From: Candidatus Poribacteria bacterium | GTDB taxonomy: Bacteria > Poribacteria > WGA-4E > PCPOR2b | Assembly (NCBI GenBank): GCA_022822005.1 | Contig: JAJECO010000023.1 | Location: forward strand, 29,904-93,903 | Reading direction: 5' to 3' | Length of the DNA: 64,000 bases | Shown: one piece after another, positions 3,285 through 61,228 of the stretch | Numbering within the stretch: position 1 is the first letter of the stretch | Layout: the number at the start of each line of letters is the position of its first letter | Translations under genes and position numbers: made by a program | The notes under the pieces: generated by a model | The model's input: only the letters and a program-made list of their open reading frames with translations | The model's database searches: none | What the model was told of the DNA's origin: nothing

Positions 3285-4004
3285 ATGCAACTTGGAGACA
3301 TACCCGACTCAAACCTTCGCACTGTGATTGCCGTTCAACTTGAAGAGCAGGCAGTTAATGATTTAGCTGATGCGCGGGAATTAAATTTACAAGAGACTGG
3401 TATAAGCAAATTGGATGGACTTGAAAAGGCAAAGAAGTTGGTTGTTCTAAGAGCAGGCGGTAATTCTATCTCCGATTTGTCGCCTTTGAAAGAGTTAACC
3501 AATTTGAAGACTCTCGATTTTTGGGGGAATACGATAGAAAATATTTTACCTCTAAAAGGATTGAAAAATTTGCGTGGATTGTGGTTCCAGAACAATCAGA
3601 TAAAGGATTTGTCCCCTTTGGAGGACTTAATCAACCTAGAATATCTGAATCTTGAGGGCAATAAGATAAAACATATTACCTCTTTACAGGGGCTAACTAA
3701 TCTGAGGTGGCTATGGCTACAAAACAACTCAATAGAAGACATATCATCGCTTGCTGATATGGAAGGATTGGAGGGTTTGTGGCTTCAGGATAACTTGATA
3801 ACCAACATTGCGACTCTGAAGAGAATTTCCAAACTGACAAGGCTGGAGATTGACATAAATTCACTGTCAGATTTTGAATATCTAAAAGGACTAAGGAATA
3901 AGCATAGACTAGTGGTTGAGATAGAATCTCCAGTACCTTTGAGTTTCTTCGACGGTGACGGGCGAGGAGGCATCCTGAAAGTGGTTGTTAGGGAATATAA
4001 TTAG
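3285..4004 (+). CDS. leucine-rich-repeat (internalin-type) protein
   Basis: About eight 22-aa repeats of LxxLxxLxxLxLxxNxIxDIxxL. AAGGAG RBS. No signal peptide. Confidence 0.7.
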   Translation: MQLGDIPDSNLRTVIAVQLEEQAVNDLADARELNLQETGISKLDGLEKAKKLVVLRAGGNSISDLSPLKELTNLKTLDFWGNTIENILPLKGLKNLRGLWFQNNQIKDLSPLEDLINLEYLNLEGNKIKHITSLQGLTNLRWLWLQNNSIEDISSLADMEGLEGLWLQDNLITNIATLKRISKLTRLEIDINSLSDFEYLKGLRNKHRLVVEIESPVPLSFFDGDGRGGILKVVVREYN

Positions 4005-4106: not shown

Positions 4107-5399
4107 ATGCAGCCCAGGAGATCCTCCTTGAGCACAACAACAACCAATAGCAGCGAACCAATCGGATACCGTGAACTGATTCGCGGCAACCGTAATTTTC
4201 GCCTGCTCTGGTTTGGACAGATTATCAGCCTCCTGGGGGATTGGTTCAACTTTGTCGCTTCCGCTTCGCTCATCGCAATACTCACCCAGTCCGGGTTCGC
4301 TGTCGGCAGCCTCTTCGTCGTCCGGATGCTCGCCCCATTCTTCATCAGTCCCATCGCTGGTGTGGTCGCCGACCGTTATAACCGCAAAAATATCCTCATC
4401 ATAACCGACCTAACGCGTGCTGTAGCCGCATTCGGTTTCCTCTTCGTCCGGAGCGCCGATCATGTCTGGCTCCTTTACGTTCTCACCGCCCTCCAACTCG
4501 GCATCAGCGGCTTCTTCTTCCCCACACGCAATGCAATTTTACCCGATATAGTTTCATCACAAGGGCTTGGTGCTGCCAACGCCTTAGGGTCCGCGACATG
4601 GTCGGTTATGCTCGCCGTGGGCGCTGCCATCGGCGGAATAGTGTCCGGCGCGTGGGGCATCTACCCCGCCTTTGTCATTGACGGCTTGACCTTTCTCCTC
4701 TCTGCTGCATTCATCATTCCCATTAAACTTGATGCGAAACCCGCCCCCGCGGCGTCGGACAAAACTATGGGGGCTGCCGTCACGGAGTACCTCGACGGTT
4801 TACGTTATCTGGGCAGGCATACCGATACACTGGTCGTCGCACTACATAAAGCCGCCAGCGCACTGGTGATGGGGTCAGGATCTCAGGTCGCAATGGTCGT
4901 CATCGCCAAAGATATCTTTGTAATTGGGGAAGGTGGGGGTATCAGTCTCGGTCTCATGCTTGGGATGGGCGGCATCGGAACAGGGATCGGTCCCATTATC
5001 GCTCGCCATTTCACCGGGGATCGGGATCGTCCGTTGCGGTATGCCATCATTTTGGGCTATCTGATGGGCGCTGTGGGACTGGCAATCGTCGCGCCGATGA
5101 TCCAATTCGGCTGGGTGCTTCTGGGTGTCACCCTCCGTGGAATTGGCGGGGGAATTATATGGGTGTTCTCAACACAACTCTTATTGCAGCTCGCCCCCAA
5201 TTCGGTGCGTGGCAGGGTTTTCTCCACCGACTATGCCCTTTTTACACTGATGAGCGCCATCGGTTCTGCGGCTGCGGGCGGGGCACTCGACGCCTCACTG
5301 AGCCTCCCTGCAATTTTCTGGTGGATGGCGGGTTTGACGGTGATCCCAGCGGTTCTCTGGGCGGCATGGCTGGGCGACAGAACCGAACACGAAACGTAA
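4107..5399 (+). CDS. MFS transporter
   Basis: 12 predicted TM segments. N-terminal FRLLWFGQ...LGDW motif of EntS/macrolide-efflux-like MFS transporters. Confidence 0.8.
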   Translation: MQPRRSSLSTTTTNSSEPIGYRELIRGNRNFRLLWFGQIISLLGDWFNFVASASLIAILTQSGFAVGSLFVVRMLAPFFISPIAGVVADRYNRKNILIITDLTRAVAAFGFLFVRSADHVWLLYVLTALQLGISGFFFPTRNAILPDIVSSQGLGAANALGSATWSVMLAVGAAIGGIVSGAWGIYPAFVIDGLTFLLSAAFIIPIKLDAKPAPAASDKTMGAAVTEYLDGLRYLGRHTDTLVVALHKAASALVMGSGSQVAMVVIAKDIFVIGEGGGISLGLMLGMGGIGTGIGPIIARHFTGDRDRPLRYAIILGYLMGAVGLAIVAPMIQFGWVLLGVTLRGIGGGIIWVFSTQLLLQLAPNSVRGRVFSTDYALFTLMSAIGSAAAGGALDASLSLPAIFWWMAGLTVIPAVLWAAWLGDRTEHET

Positions 5400-5411
5400 T
5401 GCGTGAAACAT

Positions 5412-5459
5412 AAAAACGAGAAGACGAGCTAAAGCCTTTGTCCCGTTATCTCGTTTTCT
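5412..5459. terminator. hairpin between convergent genes, possibly a bidirectional terminator
   Basis: AAAACGAGA....TCTCGTTTT inverted repeat between the MFS gene (+) and the isomerase gene (-). Confidence 0.3.
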
Positions 5460-5490
5460 ACTTCCTTGCGTCTTTGCGTTAAGATAGGTT

Positions 5491-6201
5491 TCACTGACCG
5501 AATCCGAGACTGCGGAGATGTGCGACCGCTTGCTTCATATCTCCGGGTGCCTGCATAATCCACGGTCCCTGAAAACCCACGTCTTCAAGAACCCCCTTGA
5601 CACCAGCGAAATCCACCGCCCCCGTACCCAGCGTTGGAAAATCCCATTCGTCAAAATTACCGCTGTGGTCCTTCAAATGGGCGCTCACAACATACTGTGC
5701 AATCTTTTTCAATTCCGTGACCGCATCCGCCCCATCCGTATAGAAACTGATATTCCCCGTATCGTAATTGATTCTTACATTCGGGTGGTCGGTAGCGTCC
5801 ATGGTTTTCAACGCAACCTCGGCATTATGCACCAGCGATGGATGCGTTTCAAGTGCGACAGTGATGCCACGCTGTGCCGCCTCATCACCCATCGTTTTCA
5901 GCCAATCGCAGACCTTTGGTCTCATTTCTTCATCGGCTTTGATGCTACTGAGTGCGAGATCTATGCCCATCTTGACCGCCGCATCAAACGCGTTTACCCA
6001 CGCCTGGCTCGCCGCCTCAGTGGCAACGGTATCCTCTTCGAGATATAACGCGGTCAATCCGATGGCTTGCAGCCCCTTCGCTTTGAGATCGGCCTGAAGT
6101 TCTTCGACCTTGTCAGGTTCAGGGGCACCGACTTGAACATATCGGATGCCGTGTTCTAAAAGCTCTGCACCGCCCCCTATATTTGCCAATACGTTTGCCA
6201 T
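5491..6201 (-). CDS. sugar phosphate isomerase/epimerase (xylose-isomerase-like TIM barrel)
   Basis: ALETHP and HLKD motifs. AAGGAG RBS. Confidence 0.75.
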   Translation of the reverse strand: MANVLANIGGGAELLEHGIRYVQVGAPEPDKVEELQADLKAKGLQAIGLTALYLEEDTVATEAASQAWVNAFDAAVKMGIDLALSSIKADEEMRPKVCDWLKTMGDEAAQRGITVALETHPSLVHNAEVALKTMDATDHPNVRINYDTGNISFYTDGADAVTELKKIAQYVVSAHLKDHSGNFDEWDFPTLGTGAVDFAGVKGVLEDVGFQGPWIMQAPGDMKQAVAHLRSLGFGQ

Positions 6202-7345: not shown

Positions 7346-8158
7346 ATGGTCCGAATCCCAATAACCATGTGCCACGGCATCAGGCATGACGGCGACTATC
7401 CATTGACCGCGGACCATCTCGACAGACTGGTGAAAATTGCTGCCGAACTGAACTTTGAATCCATCAATTACGATCAGCTTTTTCAATGGTTCCAAGAGGG
7501 AGAGGAGTTGCCGCATCGACCGATCATGTTTGACTTCGATCACCCTGTGAAGTCAATGCGTTATGAAATACATGATGTCCTGAACAAATACGGCTACGCT
7601 GGAAATCTGTTTGTCAATACCGGACCGGTAGATGAACTCTACGCCAAGCCTATGCCGTCGGATCTCGTCCGTGAGACTATGACCTGGGACGAGATGGGCC
7701 AGCTCATAGAAAGCGGTTGGCATATCGGGGCACATACGGTAACGCATCCGAACCTGTCTGAACTCTCCCTTGAGGATGCGTCCGGCGAAAAATTACGGGC
7801 GGAACTGGAGCGGTGCGATGAAACATTGAAAAAGCATCTCGGAATTACGCCAAAAGACTTCGCTTTTACAGGCACAAGTTGGAGCAGTATCGCAGAACGT
7901 GAAGTCTCAAAAAGATATCGGTTTGGCAGGCTCTGGATTGTGGGAACAGAATATCAAGTTGATGGCAAGAGGACGAGATACGCCGATCTCGTCGGGGTTG
8001 ATGGTCCCGACGAAGCGGACGGTGGACCGCCAATAGCGGCGCGTTATATCACAAAGGATTCGCCCCCTTATCGTCTGCCATCGATGGAAATTCAGAGATC
8101 CCTAATTTATGACACCGACGCGTTTCGCCGTTACCTTGAAGGCGCACTAAAGACTTAG
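7346..8158 (+). CDS. polysaccharide deacetylase (NodB-homology) family protein
   Basis: FDFDHP and GAHTVTHPNL motifs. Confidence 0.7.
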   Translation: MVRIPITMCHGIRHDGDYPLTADHLDRLVKIAAELNFESINYDQLFQWFQEGEELPHRPIMFDFDHPVKSMRYEIHDVLNKYGYAGNLFVNTGPVDELYAKPMPSDLVRETMTWDEMGQLIESGWHIGAHTVTHPNLSELSLEDASGEKLRAELERCDETLKKHLGITPKDFAFTGTSWSSIAEREVSKRYRFGRLWIVGTEYQVDGKRTRYADLVGVDGPDEADGGPPIAARYITKDSPPYRLPSMEIQRSLIYDTDAFRRYLEGALKT

Positions 8159-8176
8159 GCTTATGTAAAAAGAAAT

Positions 8177-8233
8177 AGGAGTTACGCACTTCAGATTGTA
8201 GCTGCCTGTTTCTTAATCCCGATTTATCGGGGA
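8177..8233. repeat. 57-bp repeat unit (copy 1 of 2), including the CCCGATTTATCGGG hairpin
   Basis: Nearly identical to 19727-19783. Confidence 0.7.
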
Positions 8234-8303
8234 TTTAAGGATTTTCAGGATAGAAACCGGAACGTGACATGGGACTATTTTAGAAAGGGACAGGGGGTAT
8301 TTA

Positions 8304-8380
8304 GCCCCAGCGGGGCGACATGTTTATAGCATACGGATAGCCCCATACCCCAAAGCCCCAGCGGGGCGACATGTGCCATT
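8304..8380. repeat. two direct copies of the 21-bp motif AGCCCCAGCGGGGCGACATGT
   Basis: Each copy contains a GCCCC-AGC-GGGGC hairpin. The copies are about 50 bp apart. Confidence 0.7.
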
Positions 8381-8506
8381 TGTCTGAATCGCAGATTGCT
8401 CTCTCACACGAAAGCGATTTATGTACACCCCTCAATTACTTGGACACTGCAAATCGGCGAGGTAGGCAAACCTCGACTACTAGGGTTAGAAAAATCTGGG
8501 CTATCA

Positions 8507-8600
8507 CCCGGTAGGTGCGGTTTTTAACCGCACTGAAGCGGCGCAGTTAGAAACAGCGCCTACCAAACATGACGAGCAAAAGTGTCTATTTGTTTTTAGA
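8507..8600. repeat. REP-like block (GTGCGGTT-TTT-AACCGCAC hairpin plus AAAGTGTCTATTTGTTTTTA), copy upstream of the SDR gene
   Basis: Direct repeat of 9425-9507. The pair flanks the SDR gene 8632-9399. Confidence 0.7.
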
Positions 8601-8631
8601 ATTCACTATAAATGTTAAAGGAAGTAAATAG

Positions 8632-9399
8632 ATGGCATCAATCGATTTTTCATTGATCGACAAGGTTGTTCTCGTAACCGGTGCAGGGAAAGGTATCGGC
8701 AAAGAGATTGCGCTCGCTTGTGCGGACGCCGGAGCCGACATCGTCGCAGGAAGCCGCACCGTCAGTGAAGTTGAACAGGTAGCGGAGGAGGTTCGCAAAG
8801 CAGGTCAACGCGCAGAAGCATGGCAACTGGACGTTGCGGACGTTTCAAGCATTGAGGGATTCATACAGAAGACGCTCGACACCTTTGGTAGAATTGATGT
8901 ACTAGTCAACAACGCCGGAGTCAACAAGGTCCAGCCCGCGCTTGATGTCACCGAAGAAGACTTCGATTATATCGTGGACGTAAACTTTAAGGGCACCTTC
9001 TTCATGAGCCAGATGACGGCGAAGTCGATGATTGAGAACGGTATTCGGGGACGTATCATCAACATCAGTTCGCAAGTCGGTGTTGTCGGCGGACCACTAC
9101 GAGCACCCTATAGCGGCGCGAAGGGCGCCGTTTGCCTACTCACCAAATCGTTAGCCGCGGAATGGGCAACGCACGGCATCACAGTCAACTCGGTCGCACC
9201 AACCGTCACCCGCACACCCCTTTCAGAAGGGGCACTGAAAAACCCCGAATTTCAGAAGATGGTAAACGAAAATGTTCTGATGGGGCGGATCGCAGAACCG
9301 GAAGAAATCGCAGCAGCGGTTATCTACCTCGCAAGCGATATAGCCGGCATGGTCACCGGACACACACATCTTGTCGATGGCGGATGGACTGCGGTTTGA
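8632..9399 (+). CDS. SDR-family oxidoreductase
   Basis: TGAGKGIG, NNAG and YSGAKGAV motifs. Confidence 0.85.
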   Translation: MASIDFSLIDKVVLVTGAGKGIGKEIALACADAGADIVAGSRTVSEVEQVAEEVRKAGQRAEAWQLDVADVSSIEGFIQKTLDTFGRIDVLVNNAGVNKVQPALDVTEEDFDYIVDVNFKGTFFMSQMTAKSMIENGIRGRIINISSQVGVVGGPLRAPYSGAKGAVCLLTKSLAAEWATHGITVNSVAPTVTRTPLSEGALKNPEFQKMVNENVLMGRIAEPEEIAAAVIYLASDIAGMVTGHTHLVDGGWTAV

Positions 9400-9424
9400 C
9401 GGCATGAATTATATTGCCCCCAGA

Positions 9425-9507
9425 CCCGGTAGGTGCGGTTTCTAACCGCACCGCCTCCCGTCGAGTCGGGACAGGACACGGGGGCGAAAGTGTTTATCTG
9501 TTTTTAT
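9425..9507. repeat. REP-like block, copy downstream of the SDR gene
   Basis: Same 8-bp-stem hairpin and AAAGTGTTTATCTGTTTTTA tail as 8507-8600. Confidence 0.7.
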
Positions 9508-9689
9508 GGTGAATTATAGAAATAAGTAAACATTACCCATAACTCCGACCTTTGAGAGGTTTCCAAAGTCCTCCTGACAAGAGAGGTTAGGGCGGTTACA
9601 AACACTTCCCCCCTGACAAGGGGGGCTAGGGGGGTTGGTTGTGCAGTAGGAATGTCTAAGTAATTGTAAAATCTACCATAGAATTCACC
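9508..9689. mobile_element. MITE-like element, about 182 bp, with imperfect terminal inverted repeats GGTGAATTATAG / CTATGGAATTCACC (full copy)
   Basis: Homologous copies at 11069-11190 and 19875-20042. No coding capacity. Confidence 0.55.
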
Positions 9690-9735
9690 ATAGTAAGGTT
9701 CGGATCAGGGGATCGGAATAGGAAGGGTAAGAAAC

Positions 9736-10599
9736 GTGAAAAAACTAACCTCAAACGGCATACTGCTAGACACGTCGCCACACGCATTCGGTGAGATGCG
9801 CGAATCAAACAATCTCCTTGACGACACCCCCGCCTTAAGGGACCGAATGGCGGAGGACGGCTATCTCCTACTCCGCGACTATTTGGATCTGGAGTGGGTC
9901 ATGGCCGCGCGGCGATCCGTGCTTGAGGTGTTAGCCGAACATGAGATGCTCGACGAAAACTATCCCCTCATGGAGGCGCAGGCAGCAAAGAGTGATCAAG
10001 AAACATTTCGATCTGCGATCGGCAGTCGCGCAGCGTTGGGAAAATTGCCTGCCGTGCAGAGGTTGGTGCATTCCGGCCGGATGATCGACTTCTACACCGC
10101 ATTCCTCGGCGGCGAGGTCAGATCCTTTGATTTCATCTGGATGCGCGTGATGGGTCCCGGCAGATCCAGTGCGCCGCACTACGACATTGTCTACATGGGA
10201 CGAGGCACCACGAACCTATACACCTCGTGGACGCCCTTAGGAGATGCTCCCTTGAGCGACGCCTCACTGATGGTACTTGAAAACTCCCACCGTCTGGAGG
10301 AGCTCAAATCAACCTACGGACAGATGGACGTCGACAAGAAAGGTAACTGGAAAAAATCGGGCGGGAGTTTCGGCAAAGACCCCGCAGCGATTCAGAAGGA
10401 ATTTGGAGGCCGTTGGCTCACAACAGACTTCCGCGCCGGAGATCTGCTGGTGTTCAGTATGTATACGATGCACTGCTCCCTCGACAATCGCTCGGATCGG
10501 ATTCGACTGTCTTCAGATACGCGCTACCAACTGGCATCGGAGCCGGTGGATGAGCGCTGGATCGGTGACAATCCAATCGCCCATTCAGTGCGAGAATAG
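9736..10599 (+). CDS. phytanoyl-CoA dioxygenase (PhyH) family protein
   Basis: PHYD...H 2-His-1-carboxylate pattern. GTG start with a GGAAGGG RBS. Confidence 0.65.
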   Translation: MKKLTSNGILLDTSPHAFGEMRESNNLLDDTPALRDRMAEDGYLLLRDYLDLEWVMAARRSVLEVLAEHEMLDENYPLMEAQAAKSDQETFRSAIGSRAALGKLPAVQRLVHSGRMIDFYTAFLGGEVRSFDFIWMRVMGPGRSSAPHYDIVYMGRGTTNLYTSWTPLGDAPLSDASLMVLENSHRLEELKSTYGQMDVDKKGNWKKSGGSFGKDPAAIQKEFGGRWLTTDFRAGDLLVFSMYTMHCSLDNRSDRIRLSSDTRYQLASEPVDERWIGDNPIAHSVRE

Positions 10600-10624
10600 G
10601 TGTGAGATTCTCAACTGAAAAGCT

Positions 10625-10831
10625 ATGAGCTACAAGCGACGCAACATTATCCAAGCACTCCGCGAATATGGCTTTGAAGTTCTGCGTGAAGGTAGACGAC
10701 ATACGATATATTCGCGTGGCGAGATAACAGTCCCTGTTCCGCGCCATCGTCAAATCACGCCAGCAACATCTCGAAGTATTGCAAGAATCATTGGTGTGCC
10801 TTGGCGAGAATTTGAATCCAAAATCTCATAA
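10625..10831 (+). CDS. hicA: type II toxin HicA (YcfA-like mRNA interferase)
   Basis: 68-aa protein with L.EYGFEV.REG..H...SRG.ITVP.PRH..I...T...I....G. Confidence 0.7.
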   Translation: MSYKRRNIIQALREYGFEVLREGRRHTIYSRGEITVPVPRHRQITPATSRSIARIIGVPWREFESKIS

Positions 10832-10843
10832 GGAGCATGAAAC

Positions 10844-11047
10844 ATGGAGTATTTTACAGTAGAGATTCAACGAGATGGGAATTTCTTTGTCGCTCAGTGC
10901 GTTGAGGAAGAATCCTGTTTCACGCAGGGAAAAACACTTCAGGAAACCATCCGTAATATGCGCGAAGTTTTAGAATTAATGTTAGATGTCAAGCATCCTC
11001 AACTAGAGGTGCACTTACGGCACGATGCAGTTGAGGTGTTTGCTTGA
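10844..11047 (+). CDS. hicB: antitoxin HicB (short UPF0150-type)
   Basis: 67-aa protein, Y.V.I.RDG.F.A.C.E...C.TQG.TLQET..N..E..EL. It starts 12 nt after the hicA stop. AAGGAG RBS. Confidence 0.65.
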   Translation: MEYFTVEIQRDGNFFVAQCVEEESCFTQGKTLQETIRNMREVLELMLDVKHPQLEVHLRHDAVEVFA

Positions 11048-11068
11048 AGATTTTCGTCAGGATATATA

Positions 11069-11190
11069 GTGAATTATAGAAATAAGTAGACATTAATAGT
11101 AGTAGGCACACTCCGTGTGCCGTAACTCGGCGAGCAAGGTCCGTGACTTGGTTCGCTCATCATGTCTAAGTAATTCTAAAATCTACCATA
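11069..11190. mobile_element. MITE-like element, shortened copy
   Basis: Shares the 5' GTGAATTATAGAAATAAGTAGACATTA and the 3' ATGTCTAAGTAATTCTAAAATCTACCATA with 9508-9689. Its interior holds the GGCACAC-TCC-GTGTGCC hairpin. Confidence 0.5.
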
Positions 11191-11261
11191 AAAACAACCT
11201 TGTGTAGAAAATATATCCTATCCAATAGGCAACAACTTTATAAATCAAGCAGGAGGTTATC

Positions 11262-11630
11262 ATGATCATACGAAACTGGCGTGATTCAATTCCCTATGTC
11301 GGGCATGAAAGCAAAATTATTTGGCCCATACTGACCCGCGCTGAGAACGAAAACGCTGATCCACCGGAAGTCGCGTGTCTGCAAGGACTGAGCAATTTCA
11401 CACGCCACGTCGTCCAAGGACGCATCACGACGGATTACCACGACCATCAAGACAAAGAACAGGTCTACTACTTTATCAAAGGGCGGGGCAAAATGTTGAT
11501 CGACGGTAAGGAATACCCAGTAACAGCGGGTGATGCCGTACATCTACCGCCCAAGACAAAGCACGGCGTCATCAATGACGGCGAAGATGAAATTGAGTAC
11601 CTGAACATCAGTGCGCCTGTTGAGCAGTAA
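11262..11630 (+). CDS. cupin-domain protein
   Basis: Cupin motifs in G...VYYF.KG.G........YPV..GDAVHLPP...HG..N. Confidence 0.7.
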   Translation: MIIRNWRDSIPYVGHESKIIWPILTRAENENADPPEVACLQGLSNFTRHVVQGRITTDYHDHQDKEQVYYFIKGRGKMLIDGKEYPVTAGDAVHLPPKTKHGVINDGEDEIEYLNISAPVEQ

Positions 11631-11674
11631 TTCAGGGACGCAATCCTCCTCTACATTCCAGCTAAGGAGTCTTT

Positions 11675-12481
11675 ATGATTAAACTCGGTATGTATGGATC
11701 CTATTTTGGCAAGGACGATCCAAAAACACTTCCCTACGTTGAAGATGTGATCGATTTCGCCTACGAGCTGAAGCTAGACGTCGTCGATTTCCGCGCCGAC
11801 GTGGGCTTTCGCTCACAGGACCTCGATTATCTGCGCGCTATCAAGATTAAATGCCTCAAAGCCGGACTCCCTATCGGCTATCTCGCAACCGGCGGCCATT
11901 TTGTGGGAACGGAAGATGAACTACAGGAGAAAATGGTTCGGTGCAAAGCAGATCTGGATACCGCCGTCTTCCTCGGCGCACCGATGGTAAGATCGTTCTG
12001 CGGTCCCACGCCGGAGACCGATGAAGGGCAAGCGCGGGAAGTTGAGTGTTTCCAAGAACTGTGTGATGCCGCCGCCGAAAAGGGTATCATCGTCGGTGTG
12101 CAGAACCATCCATGTACCGGCGACGGGGTCCTACAGCTGCTGCGTGAGACAGATCGCGAGAACTTTACCTTTATTCTGGATACCGGTCAGTGGGTGGGAT
12201 CTCCCTCACGGACCCAAGGTGTTCCCGATCCGGATATAGATACCTACCAATTCATGGAGCAGACCGCTCCCTACGCCTCGTATGTCCGTGCGAAAGTTTA
12301 TAAAGTGGATAGTGGACGTGAGGAGTGGTTAGACTATGAACGTATTGTTAAAATTTTGAAAGCAGCGAATTTTAATGGATGTATGTCCATCACATTTGAA
12401 GGCAAAGATGTCAACGAATGCGATGATAAAGAAACCTTCAGGCGAGCGGCTAAGTATCTACGTGAACTACTTGCCGCCTAG
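11675..12481 (+). CDS. sugar phosphate isomerase/epimerase (xylose-isomerase-like TIM barrel)
   Basis: GAPMVRSF and GVQNHP motifs. Paralogue of 22213-23013. Confidence 0.75.
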   Translation: MIKLGMYGSYFGKDDPKTLPYVEDVIDFAYELKLDVVDFRADVGFRSQDLDYLRAIKIKCLKAGLPIGYLATGGHFVGTEDELQEKMVRCKADLDTAVFLGAPMVRSFCGPTPETDEGQAREVECFQELCDAAAEKGIIVGVQNHPCTGDGVLQLLRETDRENFTFILDTGQWVGSPSRTQGVPDPDIDTYQFMEQTAPYASYVRAKVYKVDSGREEWLDYERIVKILKAANFNGCMSITFEGKDVNECDDKETFRRAAKYLRELLAA

Positions 12482-12567
12482 TCTTTTTGGATAAATCCGA
12501 TGCCGTTGCGCGAAGGAAGCCTTGCGCCTGCGGAATCGGAACACGATACACAATCAAGGAGATTATA

Positions 12568-13680
12568 ATGGCCGAAAATATTTACTCAAGATTGGGTGCA
12601 GTTCCAATTATCAACGCTGCGGGTAACTCCACCGCCATGGGTGGCTCAACCCCTACCCCAATAGTCAAACAGGCAATGGAAGAAGCGGAAGAATACTTTG
12701 TGGACATGGAAGAACTCCTCGAAAAATCTGGAGACCATATCGCTTCTCTGGTCGGCGCGGAGGCCGCTTATGTCACGGCAGGCTGCTACGCTGCCATGGT
12801 ACTGTCCACCGCTGCGTGTATGACCGGCAATGATCAGGAAAAAATGGATCAGCTTCCAGATACCACCGGCATGAAGGACGAGGTCGTCATCCAAGCAAAA
12901 CAGCGATACGGCTTTGATCGGGCTTACACCATACCGGGAAGCAAGCTGATAGAAGCGGGAGACGAAAGCGGGTGCACGGCAGAACAACTGGAAGCCGCAA
13001 TCGGTCCCCAGACCGCAGCCGTTATCCACTTTATTAGCCCAGATCCGGATGTCACTGTTGTCTCGCTCGAAGATACGGTCAGCATAGCACGTAAACATAA
13101 CGTGTACGTCATCGCCGACGCCGCTTCGCAGATCTTCCCAATCAATTATTTCAAGGACACCGCCACATCGGCAGACCTGGTCTGCTTCGGCGGCAAATAT
13201 GTCCACGGTCCCCACTCAGCTGGATTTGTGGCTGGCAAGAAGGACCTCATCCAAGCCGTCGCTGCCCACGGTTTCATCGGACCCCGTCCCTTGGGACGCG
13301 GGATGAAGATAGACCGACAGGAAATCATCGGACTCACCGTCGCCCTCGACCAATGGTTCACGATGGACCACGAGGAACGCTTCGACGAATATCGGCAAAA
13401 GTTCGCTGTCATTGAGCGAGCAATTGAAGGTGCGCCCGGCGTGGAAGAAACCAAGGAAGTTACCACGCAAAGGTATTGGGGCGTTGAACTCCACGTCGTC
13501 GTCAACGCGGCGGAGGCAGCACGTAGTGCACGTGAACTCATCGAAGATCTTGATGCTGGCGATCCCTGCATCAAAGTTGGCGGCGAAGGCGAAGATGCCG
13601 TCGTTATCCGGGTAGACAACTTAGAGGAAGGTGATGAACATACCATCGCCCAACGGTTGAGAGCCCTGCTCGCCGGTTAA
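12568..13680 (+). CDS. SelA-family (PF03841-like) PLP-dependent enzyme of the DgaE-like lyase type
   Basis: N-terminal NIYSRLG..PIINAAGN.T..GGS...P.V..AM..A...FVD...L..K.G as in D-glucosaminate-6-P ammonia-lyase-like proteins. AAGGAG RBS. It lacks the N-terminal domain of a true SelA. Confidence 0.55.
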   Translation: MAENIYSRLGAVPIINAAGNSTAMGGSTPTPIVKQAMEEAEEYFVDMEELLEKSGDHIASLVGAEAAYVTAGCYAAMVLSTAACMTGNDQEKMDQLPDTTGMKDEVVIQAKQRYGFDRAYTIPGSKLIEAGDESGCTAEQLEAAIGPQTAAVIHFISPDPDVTVVSLEDTVSIARKHNVYVIADAASQIFPINYFKDTATSADLVCFGGKYVHGPHSAGFVAGKKDLIQAVAAHGFIGPRPLGRGMKIDRQEIIGLTVALDQWFTMDHEERFDEYRQKFAVIERAIEGAPGVEETKEVTTQRYWGVELHVVVNAAEAARSARELIEDLDAGDPCIKVGGEGEDAVVIRVDNLEEGDEHTIAQRLRALLAG

Positions 13681-13703
13681 ATTCGGTTCCGGTTTAGGGT
13701 TCG

Positions 13704-13731
13704 TAGGGAACGCAGATCTGCGTTCCCTACC
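13704..13731. promoter_or_regulatory. perfect 28-bp palindrome GTAGGGAACGCAGATCTGCGTTCCCTAC (terminator hairpin or dimeric operator)
   Basis: Seen directly, 24 nt after the stop at 13680. Confidence 0.4.
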
Positions 13732-13790
13732 ACAAGATACACCCGACGACCCCGCACTCTCCTCAACAGATTATTAACAAACACGTACAG

Positions 13791-14693
13791 ATGGACAAGC
13801 AGTTCCCAACAGCAGCATGTGATCAAATTGCGACGGACTTTTGCGGGCGTATCGGCTTCTACATCGAAGACCTGACCACCGGAATAACGCACGAACACAA
13901 TGCGGATCAACGCTTTCCCACTGCAAGCGTCTGCAAAGTGCCAGTGATGATCGAACTGTTCCGTCAGGTTGAGAACGGTACACTTTCTCTTGACGACCGC
14001 CGTCGGCTGCAAGGAGACATCTCCACCCACGGGTCAGGGACGCTACAGCTGATGGAAGATGAGCCGGAGCTGACGCTACGCGACTATTGTCGGTTGATGA
14101 TCGGGGTCAGCGATAACATGGCGACCGACTTCCTCTTAGGGGTGGTTGGGTTGGAATCGGTCAACGCCACCTTGGATGCGATGGGATTCCCCAACACCCG
14201 GACCAGCACAACCCTGGGTCGCTATCACTACCGGATGTTCGGCATGGACGATGTCCCATGTAACCGAGCAAACGATGTGGTGCAGCAGGCACGGGCAGAG
14301 ACGCACGGCACTGACTTCGACAGCGTATCCTTCCAAGATTCTTTGGAAAACAACGTCGCCACCCCACGGGACATGGGGAGTATCCTAAAACAACTTCACG
14401 CCGGTCAAATCGTCAGTCCGCAGGCATCGGCGGTGATGATCGAGATGCTCAAACTCTGCAATGACCGCCGCATGATCGCCCGAGACTTAAACCGTGACAT
14501 CCCAATCGGTCACAAGATTGGATCAAGCGGGCGTATCAAGGGGGATGTCGGGCTTATCTTCCTTCCAACAGGTCCCCTTGTCGTCTCCGCGTTTGCACTT
14601 GCGAGCGATGATGGTGCCCGTGGGGATGAGGCGATTGCAGAGATCGCCCGGTTAGCAATGGAAACCTTCTCACCCGAAAGCATCGCTCAATAA
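13791..14693 (+). CDS. class A beta-lactamase-related serine hydrolase (cytoplasmic)
   Basis: SVCK (SxxK), SDN and KIGSSG (KTG-like) motifs. No signal peptide. Confidence 0.65.
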   Translation: MDKQFPTAACDQIATDFCGRIGFYIEDLTTGITHEHNADQRFPTASVCKVPVMIELFRQVENGTLSLDDRRRLQGDISTHGSGTLQLMEDEPELTLRDYCRLMIGVSDNMATDFLLGVVGLESVNATLDAMGFPNTRTSTTLGRYHYRMFGMDDVPCNRANDVVQQARAETHGTDFDSVSFQDSLENNVATPRDMGSILKQLHAGQIVSPQASAVMIEMLKLCNDRRMIARDLNRDIPIGHKIGSSGRIKGDVGLIFLPTGPLVVSAFALASDDGARGDEAIAEIARLAMETFSPESIAQ

Positions 14694-14717
14694 TTCTTTA
14701 TACCTTGCGTTTGTTTG

Positions 14718-14740
14718 TCCCGATGCTTTATCGGGAATAG
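14718..14740 (+). terminator. hairpin TCCCGAT-GCTTT-ATCGGGA
   Basis: Downstream of 13791-14693. Confidence 0.3.
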
Positions 14741-14779
14741 TATTCTATCAATATCTAAATTTCCTATGGAGGAAACAAA

Positions 14780-15373
14780 ATGGCAGAGATACACAGTTCT
14801 TGGCAACGCGATTTCGATGTATACGACAGACTCAACGCGCTCGGCATTGACCTCGGTACGAAAGCCGACGCAGTTTCCGATCCCCGCGGTCGACGTATCT
14901 GTAACCTCACCTTTACCCCGTCCGGTTTGGTATTCGCTTCGGGGACAGGTGCCGGAACGGGTCCGGTGACCAACGACGATCAAGATGTGGAAGATGGTTA
15001 CGATGCGGGTCGCGAGGCAGGCATCAGCCACATCCTCTCCCTGCACTGGGGATTGGAACCCTTCGGAAACTTGAACGATGTCTGGTATTGCGTCAAGTGT
15101 ATCGGGATGGTCAGCTCACACGGCGGCGGGTCTTTTACAAAATCGCCCCAAGTTGTGGACGGCTACACGAAGGCGTTTCATGATGTCTTTGGGGGACCGC
15201 TCTCCGAATCGGCTGACGATGGTATGGACTCCTCCCTATCCGGTTGGCACGCACGAAGTGCTGTGGCGGGTTATGATCTACCAGGAAACTGCAAGATCGA
15301 GCCTGAGATGATATTCCAAATCGATCCAGATTTGGCAATCAGAATCATCCGAGAACGCGGTCCACACATTTAA
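14780..15373 (+). CDS. RidA/YjgF-like family protein (long variant)
   Basis: C-terminal AR.AV....LP....EIE.I pattern. GGAGGA RBS. Confidence 0.4.
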   Translation: MAEIHSSWQRDFDVYDRLNALGIDLGTKADAVSDPRGRRICNLTFTPSGLVFASGTGAGTGPVTNDDQDVEDGYDAGREAGISHILSLHWGLEPFGNLNDVWYCVKCIGMVSSHGGGSFTKSPQVVDGYTKAFHDVFGGPLSESADDGMDSSLSGWHARSAVAGYDLPGNCKIEPEMIFQIDPDLAIRIIRERGPHI

Positions 15374-15404
15374 GTTCTGATTCATGTTAAGAAATCGTGC
15401 AGTA

Positions 15405-15438
15405 GAAACCGAGTTTTTTCGGAAAAACTCGGTTTCTC
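15405..15438 (+). terminator. 15-bp-stem hairpin AGAAACCGAGTTTTT-TCGG-AAAAACTCGGTTTCT
   Basis: A related hairpin is at 40403-40428. Confidence 0.45.
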
Positions 15439-15494
15439 TCCATATTTTGCACTTTCTTTACTACATGAACCTCCCGATTTAGTTTGGAGGCATT

Positions 15495-16388
15495 ATGTCC
15501 GTTCGTTTCGTCTTTTTGACTGACAGCCACTATTATCCCGACGCACCAAAGGATTACGGTGCGCCGAAGATGCTGACACAGAGTAAGACCGTCCTCGACG
15601 CGATTGTGCCAGCGGTCAATCCGATTAAACCTGAATTCATCGTTCACGGCGGCGACTTCCTCTGCGGTGGTAGTTCGTTTGACCTGCCGTGGGAAACCTA
15701 CCTGCAATCTATTGAGGACGTTGCAGTAACTTTCGACGGCTTTGAGGCACCGCTATACTGTGTCCCCGGCAACCACGACTCCGACGCACAACAGGGGTCT
15801 TTTGAAGCGTTCGCGGAGAAATTCGACATCCCCGAAACGCTCAAGGTCGTTGATGCCGCTCCACGCCTTCGTCTCGCGATCGCCAACATCTATCACCAAT
15901 GCGACCCAATCGAAGATGGCAGCGGCGTTTGGACCGATACCCTCGACAATGCCCTCCGTGAGGAAGCAAAAAAAGCCTATGACGAAGGGCACGCGATGCT
16001 GTTGTTTATCCATGCCTGGGCACTGCCAAGCCATGAAGAGGGAAAGGGAACCCTCGACGGTGCAAATCGGTTGTTGGAAACCGTGAGGGAGAGTCCTGCC
16101 ATCGTCGCGCTCTTCACGGGGCACCGGCATACCAACCGTATCCGGATGTACCGTGACTTCCTCACTGTTGACACCGCATGTTTGATCGGTTACCCGCTGG
16201 GGTTTCGGGAGGTCCAACTCCATGACGACGGATATTTCGAGACGCGATTTCACCAACTCCCACTACCAGCACTTATCCAAGAATCGTACGACAAATCCAG
16301 CCCTGAAACGAACAACGTCTGGTGTGGTGAAATCCATGATCGGAATACGGAAATCCTCATACCAAGACTGAAAGAAATTTGGCGTTAG
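15495..16388 (+). CDS. metallophosphoesterase (calcineurin-like)
   Basis: LTDSHY, GGDF and PGNHD motifs. Confidence 0.7.
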   Translation: MSVRFVFLTDSHYYPDAPKDYGAPKMLTQSKTVLDAIVPAVNPIKPEFIVHGGDFLCGGSSFDLPWETYLQSIEDVAVTFDGFEAPLYCVPGNHDSDAQQGSFEAFAEKFDIPETLKVVDAAPRLRLAIANIYHQCDPIEDGSGVWTDTLDNALREEAKKAYDEGHAMLLFIHAWALPSHEEGKGTLDGANRLLETVRESPAIVALFTGHRHTNRIRMYRDFLTVDTACLIGYPLGFREVQLHDDGYFETRFHQLPLPALIQESYDKSSPETNNVWCGEIHDRNTEILIPRLKEIWR

Positions 16389-16402
16389 AATAGGAGAAAC
16401 AG

Positions 16403-17095
16403 ATGAGAATCCTCGTCACCGGTGCTGCTGGGGCTGTTGGTTCGGCGGTCGTGAAAGGACTGAAAGACCAGTATTCGCTGCGTGGGTTTGACCGCGTACC
16501 GATGCCGGATATTGCAGAGGCGATTGTCGGGGATGTCGGTGACTTTGAGGCAGTACTCAAAGCCACCGAGGATATGGAGGCGGTGATCCACCTCGCGGGC
16601 AATCCCTCCGGCGGCGCACCGTGGGAAGATATCCTCCAGAATAACATCATCGGCACATACAACGTCTTTGAAGCCGCCCACCAAAACGGTGTCCGTCGGG
16701 TCGCCTTCGCCAGCCGCGCTGGGCTGCTCGCACCCTACCCAAAAGATATCATGCGGACGGTTGATATGACCCCTCGACCGGAGACCTACTATTCAATCAG
16801 CAAGGTCTTCGGAGAGAATCTGGGCTATATGTATTCAGCGCGGTTTGATATGGAATTTGTCTCAGTCCGGATCGGCAACTTCAAGCGAGACCGTGACCTT
16901 CCGGATCACCCCCATCAACTGAGCCACGGCGACGCAGCTCTCGTATTTGAGCGGGCAGTTACACAACCGGGGGTGAAGTTCGAGGTTGTGTTCGGCGTCT
17001 CAGACAGCACATGGGCACTCTACGACCTGGAACATGGGCGGCAGGTCATCGACTACCACCCACAGGATAAATCCGAGGCAGAACCAGAGATCTGA
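16403..17095 (+). CDS. NAD-dependent epimerase/dehydratase family protein
   Basis: N-terminal VTGAAGAVG Rossmann motif. Confidence 0.7.
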   Translation: MRILVTGAAGAVGSAVVKGLKDQYSLRGFDRVPMPDIAEAIVGDVGDFEAVLKATEDMEAVIHLAGNPSGGAPWEDILQNNIIGTYNVFEAAHQNGVRRVAFASRAGLLAPYPKDIMRTVDMTPRPETYYSISKVFGENLGYMYSARFDMEFVSVRIGNFKRDRDLPDHPHQLSHGDAALVFERAVTQPGVKFEVVFGVSDSTWALYDLEHGRQVIDYHPQDKSEAEPEI

Positions 17096-17127
17096 GAATC
17101 AATTGTAACGATACTTCAAGGAAAAGA

Positions 17128-18156
17128 ATGATGGACGTTCTTATTATCGGTGGCACACGATACATGGGTCGGATTGTTGTACAGCGGTTGCTTGAACGTG
17201 GGGACAAGGTCACCATCTTTTCCAGAGGGACCACCCGCCCCGAATGGTGGGAGCAGATTGAGCATATTCAGGGCGACCGTGAAGATCAGGCAGATTTTGC
17301 CGCAAAGCTGAATGGAAAATCCTTTGATGCGGTCATTGATACCCAAGCCTACGGTAAAGAAGACGTTGAATCTGCGATAGGAGCATTCAATGGAAACGTG
17401 GATCGTTACGTCATAGTCAGCACCGGATCGGTATACTTGGAAGGCGCGGTAGACTTCTCCAAGCACTGCACGTTCCAAGAGTCGGTCGTGGATTGGTCGT
17501 CAATTGATTATACCTACCCCGTAGGAGAAGACCCGTACGGCGTCGGCAAACGACACTGCGAAAAGTGGCTCCAAGAAAACAGCAAGGTTCCGTACACTAT
17601 CGTCCGTATTCCAGCGGTCATGGGCTGGGACGACCCGACCGGACGGATGTGGTGGTGGGTCCAACGGGCACTGGACGGACGCAGCGTGGTCATTCCGTCG
17701 GAGAACCGTGGACTGTTCCGCACCCTATATTCCGCCGATGCTGCAAAGGTTTTCATCCGTGTCCTTGATGTGCCAGAAACTGCTAACCAGACATATCACA
17801 TCGCCATGCAAGAGATAATGACCATAGAACGTTGGGCGGAACTGATTTGGAAGGCAGCAGGTCACGAACACCAGATTACCTACGTTCCAAACGAAATTAT
17901 CCAAAAACAGCCCCACCTGAACGACTACGCCCCGCCGATGAGCCGATCCGTTTCATACCTCTACAATCTGTCCAAAGCCGAGGGTGATTTCGGTTTCAAC
18001 ACCACACCTGTAGAGGAGTGGATTCAGACGACCGTAGACTGGTATCGTGAGCAGTACACAGGCGAAAATTCGGAAGGCTATGAATATAGGCAAGACGAGT
18101 TGAGGTTGGCAGCAAGATGGACAGAACAATTCGGTCAGTTCATTTCAGGCTTCTAA
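17128..18156 (+). CDS. NAD-dependent epimerase/dehydratase family protein
   Basis: IIGGTRYMG Rossmann motif. Confidence 0.7.
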   Translation: MMDVLIIGGTRYMGRIVVQRLLERGDKVTIFSRGTTRPEWWEQIEHIQGDREDQADFAAKLNGKSFDAVIDTQAYGKEDVESAIGAFNGNVDRYVIVSTGSVYLEGAVDFSKHCTFQESVVDWSSIDYTYPVGEDPYGVGKRHCEKWLQENSKVPYTIVRIPAVMGWDDPTGRMWWWVQRALDGRSVVIPSENRGLFRTLYSADAAKVFIRVLDVPETANQTYHIAMQEIMTIERWAELIWKAAGHEHQITYVPNEIIQKQPHLNDYAPPMSRSVSYLYNLSKAEGDFGFNTTPVEEWIQTTVDWYREQYTGENSEGYEYRQDELRLAARWTEQFGQFISGF

Positions 18157-18332
18157 GTCGATACCTCAACGCCTCGTAGCTTGTAGGGAGCAACGATCGT
18201 TGTTCCTCACCACATTAGGATTCAGGGAATTAACAAAACAAAGAACCCTCTCTCTCATTATCCTGTAAATCCTAAAATCCTGTAAATCCTGATTCAGACA
18301 GTTATCCTGATTTGACGTGGGGAGGCACCAAA

Positions 18333-19673: not shown

Positions 19674-19726
19674 CGCAAAGTCGCAGAGTCGCAAAGAAAA
19701 GACCTTCTATAACAATAGGAGTTACG

Positions 19727-19875
19727 CACTTCAGATTGTAGTTGCCTGTTTCTTTATCCCGATTTATCGGGGATTCATCAGGCGTTAGCAACGGTGTTCA
19801 GTGGCGATGAATCGCCGAACTACTCCCTTGATGAGGGAGGGGGGTTGGTTTTGACCGTTCAACTGCGTAAGTCCT
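19727..19875. mobile_element. about 150-bp element with imperfect terminal inverted repeats AGGAGTTACGCACTTCAG / CAACTGCGTAAGTCCT
   Basis: Its 5' 57 bp are identical to 8177-8233. Confidence 0.45.
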
Positions 19876-20042
19876 AAATAAGTAGACATTTATCAATACT
19901 CCGACCCTCACGAAGTCGCCACAGTCCCCCTGATAAGTGGTACATCCCGCCTGTCCCGATTCATCGGGGATTTATCGGGGGAGGAATTTAGGGGGTTGGC
20001 TGTGCATCGGAACTATCTAAGTAATTCTAAAAACCATCATAA
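19875..20042. mobile_element. MITE-like element, third copy, lacking the 5' terminal inverted repeat
   Basis: Collinear with 9521-9689 (AAATAAGTAGACATT...ACTCCGACC...GGGGGTTGG.TGTGCA...CTAAGTAATTCTAAAA). Confidence 0.5.
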
Positions 20043-20850: not shown

Positions 20851-20998
20851 TCTCTCCTTTCAATATCGACTCATGTTAAAGAACCGTGCGATAGAAGGAA
20901 CAACGATCGTTGTTCCTTACTGCTATGAGTCTCGCAGGTCGGACCCCAATGAACCAATGAACTAATTACGTTTCACGCATCACGTTTTACGTTTCTTA

Positions 20999-61197: not shown

Positions 61198-61228
61198 TGT
61201 GGATAACTTGTGGATAACTTGTGGATAA
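61198..61228. promoter_or_regulatory. three tandem DnaA boxes (TGTGGATAA, the reverse complement of TTATCCACA) upstream of dnaA
   Basis: Perfect 9-mers spaced 11 bp apart, flanked by AT-rich sequence at 60960-61150. Confidence 0.6.

What the first reader, a model, noticed from the sequence alone, without database searches (positions are those of the whole stretch)
9508..9689. MITE-like repeat family in three copies (9508-9689, 11069-11190, 19875-20042)
Copy 1 is 182 bp, with imperfect terminal inverted repeats GGTGAATTATAG... / ...CTATGGAATTCACC and no ORF. Copy 2 keeps both ends but has a replaced interior. Copy 3 keeps the collinear interior and the 3' end but lacks the 5' repeat. All three lie in intergenic spacers of the metabolic region. 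One abuts the hicAB pair.
Basis: seen in the sequence. Interest (0 to 1): 0.5.

Follow-up and report, generated by a model that had tools for sequence, protein, structure and literature searches.

The report
Poribacteria MITE family with TA duplication
The three repeats are copies of a small, non-coding mobile DNA element (a MITE) scattered by the hundred through genomes of sponge-symbiont Poribacteria; it is a previously undescribed family of an ordinary, well-known kind.

Summary
The repeat is real and the MITE reading holds. All three copies share a 5' end TA|TGGTGAATTAKAGAAATAAGTAGACAT and a 3' end ATGTCTAAGTAATTSTAAAATCTACCA|TA (about 28-nt imperfect terminal inverted repeats). All labelled ones are Candidatus Poribacteria, from 27 assemblies, so local duplication is refuted. 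Of 121 ends, 96 are complete 99-260 bp elements (modes about 134 and 200 bp). None lies inside an ORF and there is no orientation bias. Paralogous and orthologous empty sites carry one TA (or TG) where filled sites carry TA...TA, so the target duplication is 2 bp. It sits in a palindromic A-W-Y-TA-R-W-T target, the IS630/Tc1-mariner signature. Relatives have 54-80 nt spacers in this operon; the window has 336-662 nt of nested elements.

- Copy 1 is 9507-9678.
- Its supposed 3' repeat (GAATTCACC) is the end of an older, reversed copy into which copy 1 inserted.
- The window holds five copies, not three.

No autonomous partner or transposase was found. There is no Rfam match, no covariation and no promoter match. 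Verdict: new member of a known kind, of modest interest.

The parts
9507..9678 (+). Copy 1: a complete 172-bp element. The 5' repeat is TGGTGAATTATAGAAATAAGTAAACAT and the 3' repeat is ATGTCTAAGTAATTGTAAAATCTACCA. The interior holds two tandem GC-rich hairpin modules.
   Evidence: It is absent from the orthologous site in L067 and L128-L130.
9505..9506 (.). Left TA of the duplicated target of copy 1. The right TA is at 9679-9680.
   Evidence: The sequence reads GTTTATCTGTTTT-TA-[copy 1]-TA-GAATTCACCATA. The uninterrupted paralogue at 8590-8610 reads TTGTTTT-TA-GAATTCACTATA.
9412..9690 (-). Older minus-strand copy (subfamily B; 5' repeat TGGTGAATTC-TA-AAAACAGATAAACAC). It is interrupted by copy 1 at the TA inside its own terminal repeat. 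Its 3' repeat is mostly deleted in the window. Its flanking TAs are at 9410-9411 and 9691-9692.
   Evidence: L067 carries the intact ortholog, TATAGTGGATATTAGAATTAATGAGACAC...AAATTCACCATA. L128-L130 have an empty 54-nt spacer, GAAT-TG-GCAAGTCGGGATCAGG.
11067..11188 (+). Copy 2: a complete 122-bp element of a subfamily with a different interior (GTAGGCACACTCCGTGTGCC...CGAGCAAGGTCCGTGACTTGGTTCGCTC). Its flanking TAs are at 11065-11066 and 11189-11190. It starts 18 nt downstream of the HicB-like ORF.
   Evidence: The same subfamily occurs in L038, L039, L048, L063, L075, L076 and L104. As RNA it folds at -37.5 kcal/mol, z -4.5. It is absent, together with hicAB, from L067 and L128-L130.
19877..20039 (+). 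Copy 3: a 5'-truncated, diverged copy. The outer 13 nt of the 5' repeat are missing. The 3' end is CTATCTAAGTAATTCTAAAAACCATCA, followed by TA at 20040-20041. Its truncated end abuts another TA-flanked repeat (19716-19874).
   Evidence: An orthologous, also 5'-truncated copy is in L072.
8434..8608 (-). Fifth copy (subfamily B, minus strand). Its 5' repeat TAGTGAATTCTAAAAACAAATAGACAC reads downward from 8608, with a flanking TA at 8609-8610. Its 3' repeat is cut after GTGTCCAAGTAATT by a fragment of a different repeat family (8236-8433).
   Evidence: (families D3, D8).

Best explanation
This is a non-autonomous DNA transposon, a MITE family restricted, as far as was sampled, to Candidatus Poribacteria.

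Anatomy. An element is 99-260 bp and non-coding. It is bounded by about 28-nt imperfect terminal inverted repeats, TGGTGAATTAGAGAAATAAGTAGACAT ... ATGTCTAAGTAATTCTAAAATCTACCA. The interior varies and is built from GC-rich hairpin modules.

Proposed mechanism. A DDE transposase supplied in trans binds the two terminal repeats and cuts the element out. It reinserts the element at a TA dinucleotide inside an AT-rich palindromic site (A-W-Y-TA-R-W-T), and repair duplicates the TA. This is the behaviour of IS630/Tc1-mariner transposons and of their MITEs.

Shown here:
- the dispersed multi-copy family and its sharp ends;
- the conserved terminal repeats;
- the TA duplication and the target preference;
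- insertion polymorphism between related genomes;
- nesting in other copies and other repeats;
- strictly intergenic location.

Inferred:
- the cut-and-paste chemistry;
- that the transposase is of IS630 type;
- that the family is still active.

The confidence of 0.85 is for the MITE reading. The IS630-type partner alone I would put at about 0.6.

In this window the elements have inflated three spacers of a sugar or secondary-metabolite operon from 54-80 nt to 336-662 nt. If transcribed they would form long hairpins. Any effect on expression is untested.
For: - Chance is excluded: 0.00 and 0.02 matches to the end blocks are expected in the window.
All labelled hits are Poribacteria, from 27 assemblies, with up to 20 3' ends in one assembly.
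- Tiles carry about 30 extra copies per Mb, which suggests on the order of 200 copies per 6.5-Mb genome.
- Of 121 3' ends, 100 have a recognisable 5' block upstream, and 96 of them form elements of 99-260 nt. Flanks diverge exactly at TA|TGG and CCA|TA.
- Flank logo: A65/96, W92/96, Y87/96 before the TA; R111/121, W113/121, T86/121 after it.
- In 17 of 18 paralogous empty-site matches there is a single TA (12) or TG (5) where filled sites have TA...TA.
- Copy 1 is inserted at the TA inside the repeat of an older copy, with an uninterrupted paralogue 900 bp away.
- Orthologous spacers in L128-L130 are empty and have one T-G at the junction.
- L067, about 90% identical in DNA, lacks copies 1 and 2 but has two copies that the window lacks.
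- Copies at unrelated loci of one genome are 99-100% identical.
- None of 96 copies lies inside an ORF of 100 aa or more. Orientation relative to flanking genes is 50 versus 41 and 33 versus 26, so there is no bias.
- At least five unrelated interiors share the same ends.
- These traits match the published definition of bacterial MITEs (PMC2229807).
Against: - No autonomous element with these ends was found. Across 888 kb of Poribacteria DNA the only uninterrupted pair of ends 0.6-3.5 kb apart encloses a foreign IS nested in a MITE.
- The window encodes no transposase among the 20 ORFs scanned.
- The one IS630-type element seen in Poribacteria (L043) has unrelated ends.
- TA is present at both ends of nearly every copy, so the duplication rests on empty-site comparison. 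The orthologous empty sites have TG, not TA, and lie in genomes only about 86% identical in protein.
- One attempted orthologous comparison (L067 site A) does not give a clean TA empty site.
- A 2-bp TA duplication is typical of IS630 but not exclusive to it.
- Transposition itself was not observed.
Confidence: 0.85

Rival explanations
1. Local duplication: the similarity reflects segmental duplication of spacer DNA within this gene cluster, not a mobile family.
For: Three copies lie within 11 kb. Other short repeats (families D5 and D8) are shared between the same spacers.
Against: More than 100 copies lie at unrelated loci in 27 assemblies. Similarity stops exactly at the element ends. Orthologous spacers in relatives are empty.
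Confidence: 0.01
2. A structured non-coding RNA or cis-regulatory RNA family: the conserved ends pair to close a functional hairpin, such as a processing site, a terminator or an sRNA gene.
For: As RNA the elements fold far better than shuffles: -37.5 kcal/mol (z -4.5) and -55.8 kcal/mol (z -6.3). Many copies sit 10-70 nt upstream of start codons. Correia elements of Neisseria have secondary roles of this kind (PMC2229807).
Against: - There is no Rfam match at gathering or at E<=1, apart from one chance hit.
- None of 33 predicted pairs shows a compensatory change in 32 copies.
- The seven mismatches between the two ends are conserved rather than repaired.
- There is no orientation bias relative to genes.
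- There is no promoter-like site and no terminator-like site on the element strand. The only terminator-like hit in an element is on the opposite strand of copy 1's interior.
- A hairpin fold is expected for any element with inverted repeats.
- This reading does not explain the TA duplication.
Confidence: 0.05
3. A REP/BIME-type or IS200/IS605-type palindromic element, mobilised by a RAYT or TnpA(Y1) single-strand transposase rather than by a DDE enzyme.
For: The elements are intergenic, highly repeated, rich in GC hairpins and nested in clusters. The interior modules (for example CCCCCTGATAAGGGGG and CCCGGTAGGTGCGGTTTCTAACCGCACC) look REP-like.
Against: Those systems use sub-terminal hairpins, have no long terminal inverted repeats and make no target duplication. 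Here there are about 28-nt terminal repeats and a TA duplication. Both orientations are equally frequent. The REP-like modules are cargo: they differ between subfamilies that share the same ends.
Confidence: 0.04
4. A true MITE whose partner is not IS630-like. It could be a member of another family that can make 2-bp duplications (for example some IS5-group elements, from general knowledge), or an unrecognised or extinct transposase, as for Correia elements.
For: No partner was found. The only IS630 element seen has unrelated ends. For most bacterial MITEs no matching IS was found or looked for (PMC2229807).
Against: A strict TA duplication with a palindromic AT-rich target is the hallmark of IS630/Tc1-mariner (general knowledge). 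Near-identical copies argue for a living source of transposase.
Confidence: 0.25

Closest known systems
Correia / NEMIS elements of Neisseria
   Same: Both are about 100-155 bp and non-coding, with terminal inverted repeats of about 24-26 nt and TA at both termini from a TA target duplication. Both occur in the hundreds per genome and are intergenic. Size variants differ by an internal block, transcripts fold into long hairpins, and no cognate transposase is known (PMC2229807; compare).
   Different: The phylum and the end sequences are different. The interior is far more modular (at least five unrelated interiors, nested hairpin modules, up to 260 bp). Neither the IHF site nor the promoter and RNase III functions described for Correia were tested. 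No sigma-70-like site was found.
RUP of Streptococcus pneumoniae (mobilised by IS630-Spn1)
   Same: It is a small (107 bp) intergenic MITE that inserts at TA and tends to land in other mobile elements (PMC2229807). Copy 1 likewise sits in another copy, and many copies sit in other repeats.
   Different: RUP has short (9 bp) terminal repeats that match a known IS630 element. Here the repeats are about 28 nt and no matching IS was found.
Stowaway-type MITEs / Tc1-mariner transposons of eukaryotes; Nezha of cyanobacteria
   Same: They share the TA duplication, terminal inverted repeats and a preference for palindromic AT-rich sites around the TA (general knowledge; Nezha is cited in PMC10969869). 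The target found here is A-W-Y-TA-R-W-T.
   Different: The hosts and sequences differ. Partners are known for those families. Details of Nezha were recalled from memory and not checked.
REP/BIME and cyanobacterial small dispersed repeats
   Same: Short GC-rich palindromic units are nested inside one another and inside larger MITE-like hosts. This resembles the interior modules here.
   Different: Those units lack long terminal repeats and a TA duplication. In this family they are cargo and do not define the element.

Membership tests
Bacterial MITE (generic) | Small (under about 300 bp) and non-coding | tested here: met
   Elements are 99-260 bp with modes at 133-135 and about 200 bp. None has an ORF of its own.
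Bacterial MITE (generic) | Terminal inverted repeats | tested here: met
   The consensus ends match at 21 of 28 positions. Each end is 72-100% conserved per position over 96 copies.
Bacterial MITE (generic) | Target-site duplication shown by filled versus empty sites | tested here: met
   In 17 of 18 paralogous empty sites there is one TA or TG against TA...TA in filled sites. Copy 1 is nested at a TA. Orthologous spacers are empty. One comparison was unclean.
Bacterial MITE (generic) | Many dispersed copies, with insertion polymorphism between relatives | tested here: met
   At least 111 stretches in 27 assemblies. The window and L067 differ at four sites.
Bacterial MITE (generic) | An autonomous element with matching terminal repeats | tested here: inconclusive
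   None was found in 888 kb of loci or in the window. Whole genomes could not be scanned a second time.
IS630 / Tc1-mariner-derived MITE | 2-bp TA duplication at a TA target | tested here: met
IS630 / Tc1-mariner-derived MITE | Terminal repeats similar to those of an IS630-family element encoding a DDE_3-type transposase | tested here: not met
   The only IS630-type element found (L043:754-2008, ends CTAGTACTCAGTCAAATAAAT) has unrelated ends. Sampling was small, so I describe the element as working like an IS630-type MITE and do not file it as a proven derivative.
Correia/NEMIS | Sequence homology to the Neisseria Correia repeat, plus an IHF site | not tested
   No reference sequence was available in the tools. 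The different phylum makes membership unlikely. The resemblance is in how it works, not in membership.
REP/BIME (RAYT) or IS200/IS605 palindromic elements | No terminal inverted repeats, no target duplication, sub-terminal hairpins, strand-specific insertion | tested here: not met
   Long terminal repeats and a TA duplication are present, and both orientations occur equally.
Structured RNA family (Rfam) | A match to a curated covariance model, or covariation that supports a structure | tested here: not met
   There are no gathering-score hits, and only a chance hit at E=0.91. No pair of 33 covaries.

The most novel reading that the evidence does not exclude
The family may be a currently active, phylum-restricted MITE that is exchanged among co-resident sponge symbionts. 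It would act as a vehicle that picks up and spreads unrelated GC-rich hairpin modules, mobilised by a transposase that is not a recognisable IS630 partner.

Observations consistent with this:
- Some 138-bp copies are 100% identical at non-orthologous loci of different species.
- Some orthologous sites carry different subtypes.
- A 66-nt module occurs in both orientations at the same internal position.

On this reading, the load of nested elements inside operons would have regulatory consequences through hairpins in polycistronic RNA.
Probability: 0.15. Interest if true: 0.5.

Novelty: new member of a known kind. Interest (0 to 1): 0.3.

Why it matters
Poribacteria are uncultivated sponge symbionts known only from single-cell and metagenome assemblies. 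A full-text search found no paper that mentions MITEs in them. A family with roughly 200 copies per genome matters in four practical ways.

- It will break short-read assemblies.
- It gives ready-made markers for strain typing and for dating lineage splits. In this window there are insertions shared with relatives, private to this genome, and nested in older copies.
- It shows how compact operons in these genomes become inflated by nested mobile DNA.
- It points to an unidentified transposase activity in the phylum.

None of this changes what is known about how MITEs work.

Tried and rejected
1. Cognate transposase. I looked for pairs of family ends 0.6-3.5 kb apart in all loci. Only L059 was uninterrupted, and it is a MITE split by a foreign IS with its own ends and a 463-aa transposase.
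   - A generic search for long inverted repeats 0.7-2.6 kb apart found other IS elements but none with these ends.
   - tblastn with the L043 IS630 ORFs found no further IS630 genes.
   - Unpaired 5' ends turned out to be a subfamily with a divergent 3' end.
   - Pfam on 20 window ORFs found no transposase.
2. Orientation-specific function (promoter or 5'-UTR element). Many copies precede start codons, but counts are symmetric (50 versus 41; 33 versus 26), so I rejected it. The promoter scan found nothing in the elements.
3. RNA family. Rfam at the gathering and E-value thresholds, and RNAalifold covariation, were all negative.
4. Metagenome scan with the PhyH protein, to get close orthologous empty sites. 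It returned only distant or fragmentary relatives.
5. Viral contigs: no hits.
6. L067 sites A and B as clean empty sites for the two L067-specific copies. The spacers are too diverged or rearranged to read a duplication.
7. A fuzzy-regex empty-site search timed out. I replaced it with exact 8+8-nt flank matching.
8. Copy 3's missing 5' end as a simple insertion of the neighbouring TA-flanked repeat. The flanks do not reconstruct the terminal repeat, so it is a truncation.

Full report
**Observation.**

- The 5' block is (TA)TGGTGAATTATAGAAATAAGTARACAT. It is present in copies 1 and 2. Copy 3 keeps only AATAAGTAGACAT.
- The 3' block is ATGTCTAAGTAATTSTAAAATCTACCA(TA). It is present in all three copies, though diverged in copy 3.

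A degenerate 3' pattern occurs 3 times in the window against 0.00 expected from shuffles. The 5' pattern occurs twice against 0.02 expected.

**Is it a dispersed family?**

All labelled hits are Candidatus Poribacteria; one is labelled only 'uncultured bacterium'. They come from 27 assemblies, with up to 20 3' ends in one assembly despite the truncation.

The window itself is poribacterial.
- Its operon is about 90% identical in DNA to L067, L072 and L002.
- Its PhyH protein is 85-87% identical to proteins from a Geodia barretti assembly and from ENA sponge metagenomes.

Profile searches of the 8-kb tiles find about 30 extra copies per Mb beyond the copy that seeded each tile. That suggests on the order of 200 copies per 6.5-Mb genome, as a rough extrapolation.

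**Anatomy.**

Of 121 3' ends, 100 have a recognisable 5' block upstream, and 96 of these form elements of 99-260 nt. The modes are 133-135 nt and about 200 nt. Flanking sequence diverges exactly outside TA|TGG... and ...CCA|TA.

The consensus ends, TATGGTGAATTAGAGAAATAAGTAGACA and the reverse complement TATGGTAGATTTTAGAATTACTTAGACA, match at 21 of 28 positions. The seven mismatches are conserved in most copies (70-94 of 96 at each position), so the asymmetry belongs to the family.

The interior is modular. At least five unrelated interiors share the same ends. Copy 2 belongs to a subfamily also seen in L038, L039, L048, L063, L075, L076 and L104. GC-rich hairpin modules are duplicated or nested within one another.

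A second end-variant, subfamily B, has the 5' end TGGTGAATTCTAAAAATAAATAGACAC and the 3' end GTGTCTCATTAATTCTAATATCCACTA.

**Target and duplication.**

The flanks give A-W-Y before the left TA and R-W-T after the right TA, which is a palindromic AT-rich site. TA is nearly invariant on both sides, so the duplication had to be shown with empty sites. Three lines of evidence agree.

1. Many copies sit inside other repeated sequences. I matched 8 nt of left flank and 8 nt of right flank against all fetched DNA. Of 18 matches, 17 had exactly one TA (12) or TG (5) where the filled site has TA...TA.
2. Copy 1 reads GTTTATCTGTTTT-TA-[TGGTG...CTACCA]-TA-GAATTCACCATA. The flanks together are the reverse complement of a subfamily-B 5' end. 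An uninterrupted paralogue lies at 8590-8610, TTGTTTT-TA-GAATTCACTATA. Copy 1 therefore inserted at the TA inside the terminal repeat of an older minus-strand copy.
3. Orthologous loci L128-L130 have a 54-nt SDR-PhyH spacer reading GAAT-TG-GCAAGTCGGGATCAGG. The window and L067 read GAAT-TA-[older copy]-TA-GTAAGGTTCGGATCAGG.

One attempted comparison (L067 site A) was not clean.

**Mobility.**

- L067, about 90% identical in DNA, shares the older copy but lacks copy 1 and copy 2. It carries two copies around the beta-lactamase-like gene that the window lacks.
- Copy 3 is shared, in truncated form, with L072.
- In L129 and L130 the operon is compact, with spacers of 80, 54 and 62 nt. In the window the same spacers are 474, 336 and 662 nt. 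They are filled with this family, two other repeat families, and hicAB.
- Copies at unrelated loci of one genome reach 100% identity, for example L051/L074 and L088/L103.

These insertions are of different ages, and the near-identical copies argue for recent activity.

**Function tests.**

- All 96 complete copies are intergenic.
- Many 3' ends lie just upstream of start codons, so I tested for orientation bias and found none. The 3' end faces a gene start in 50 cases and the 5' end in 41. Within co-directional gene pairs, 33 copies share the genes' direction and 26 oppose it.
- There is no sigma-70-like site and no terminator-like site on the element strand. One terminator-like hit lies on the opposite strand of copy 1's interior.
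- There is no Rfam match.
- As RNA the elements fold well: z -4.5 and -6.3. As single-stranded DNA copy 1 scores z -0.5. This is expected from inverted repeats. None of 33 consensus pairs shows a compensatory change in 32 copies.

Nothing points to a selected RNA or regulatory role. An incidental effect of hairpins inside the operon transcript is possible and untested.

**Transposase.**

- There is none in the window among the 20 ORFs scanned.
- Across 888 kb of poribacterial loci, the only uninterrupted pair of family ends 0.6-3.5 kb apart is L059. There a 1.5-kb foreign IS, with its own ends and a 463-aa transposase, is nested in a MITE.
- Poribacteria do carry an IS630-type element, L043:754-2008, with HTH and DDE ORFs and CTAG-type ends. 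Its ends are unrelated to this family.

The partner remains unidentified.

**Comparison with known systems.**

The traits match the published description of bacterial MITEs: under about 200 bp, non-coding, terminal inverted repeats, 5'-TA-3' termini, target duplication and long stem-loop transcripts (PMC2229807).
- The closest analogues in behaviour are Correia/NEMIS of Neisseria (24-26-nt repeats, TA duplication, size variants, no known transposase) and RUP of pneumococcus (TA target, linked to IS630-Spn1, tends to land in other mobile elements).
- A strict TA duplication in a palindromic AT-rich target is the signature of IS630/Tc1-mariner. This point rests on general knowledge.
- I file the element as a MITE, for which every defining feature that could be tested was met. 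It works like an IS630-type MITE. Derivation from an IS630 element is not shown.
- No paper in the searchable library links Poribacteria with MITEs.

**Verdict.**

This is a new family of a familiar kind. It is useful for annotation, assembly and strain typing of Poribacteria and does not alter the mechanism known for MITEs. Interest 0.3.

Noticed in passing
window 61187-61237, 61350-62711, 62727-62839: dnaA (Pfam Bac_DnaA, DnaA_N, Bac_DnaA_C) is flanked on both sides by arrays of TGTGGATAAC, which look like DnaA boxes. The window probably contains the chromosomal replication origin.
   Followed up: partly
window 8236-8433; L046 (nested); L030:945-2091; L050:423-1730: A second repeat family has ends GAGGGGTGTTCATAA / TTATGAGCATCCCTC and contains AGCCCCAGCGGGGCGACATGT hairpins. 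The window holds a left-truncated fragment that cuts the 3' repeat of the 8434-8608 copy. The 1.15-1.3 kb versions in L030 and L050 carry a 344-aa ORF and may be the autonomous form.
   Followed up: partly
window 19716-19874 and 8176-8235: A third TA-flanked repeat family has ends GGAGTTACGCACTTCAGATTG / CGTTCAACTGCGTAAGTCC. Its end motif occurs 35 times in 21 of the fetched sources. One copy abuts the truncated 5' end of copy 3.
   Followed up: partly
L006, L024, L049, L090, L100 and others; L055 (about 3840-3990 on the + strand): A 66-nt GC-rich insert sits at one position in the central hairpin of the MITE, in either orientation: CCCCCTGA-ACCCCTCTGATAAGAGGGG... versus its reverse complement. 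The module AAGTCCCCCTGA...GGGGGATTTAGGGGGTT also occurs inside a family-3 element. Either the loop between the inverted arms flips, or the module is a still smaller mobile unit.
   Followed up: partly
window 10600-11261 versus L067, L128-L130: The hicA/hicB-like pair together with copy 2 is a roughly 600-bp insertion into a PhyH-cupin spacer that is 62 nt long in three relatives. L067 has unrelated repeats at the same place. The HicB-like ORF matches UPF0150 only below Pfam's cut-off.
   Followed up: partly
L088, L103 (OZ252032) versus L098 (OZ244950); L003:6436-6572 versus L098:2192-2329; L006 versus L056: Some 138-bp copies are 100% identical at non-orthologous loci of different species. Some sites that share a flank carry different subtypes or interiors (133 versus 134 nt type; 200 versus 192 nt). 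This could reflect horizontal exchange, gene conversion or repeated hits at hot spots. It is unexplained.
   Followed up: no
L059 (about 4346-5938); L043:754-2008; L067: A 1.6-kb IS (ends GCTTACTATTACCCACAAG, 463-aa transposase) is nested inside a MITE copy. A 1255-bp IS630-type element has HTH and DDE ORFs in different frames. In L067, two MITE copies flank the beta-lactamase-like gene whose ortholog in the window (13791-14693) has none.
   Followed up: partly
window 22053-22092, 39058-39097; 20966-20990, 38836-38860: There are further dispersed short repeats. CTGTAGGAGGGATCTCCGAATCCCGA has 13 matches in 11 sources and is often next to MITE insertion sites. TTACGTTTCACGCATCACGTTT is also seen in the flanks of L063 and L104. 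Their nature is unknown.
   Followed up: no
window 7346-19673 versus L129, L130: The operon (polysaccharide deacetylase, SDR, PhyH, cupin, AP_endonuc_2/xylose-isomerase-like, aminotransferases, beta-lactamase-like) keeps its gene order across Poribacteria. Spacers are 54-80 nt in relatives but 336-662 nt in the window, owing to nested repeats.
   Followed up: yes
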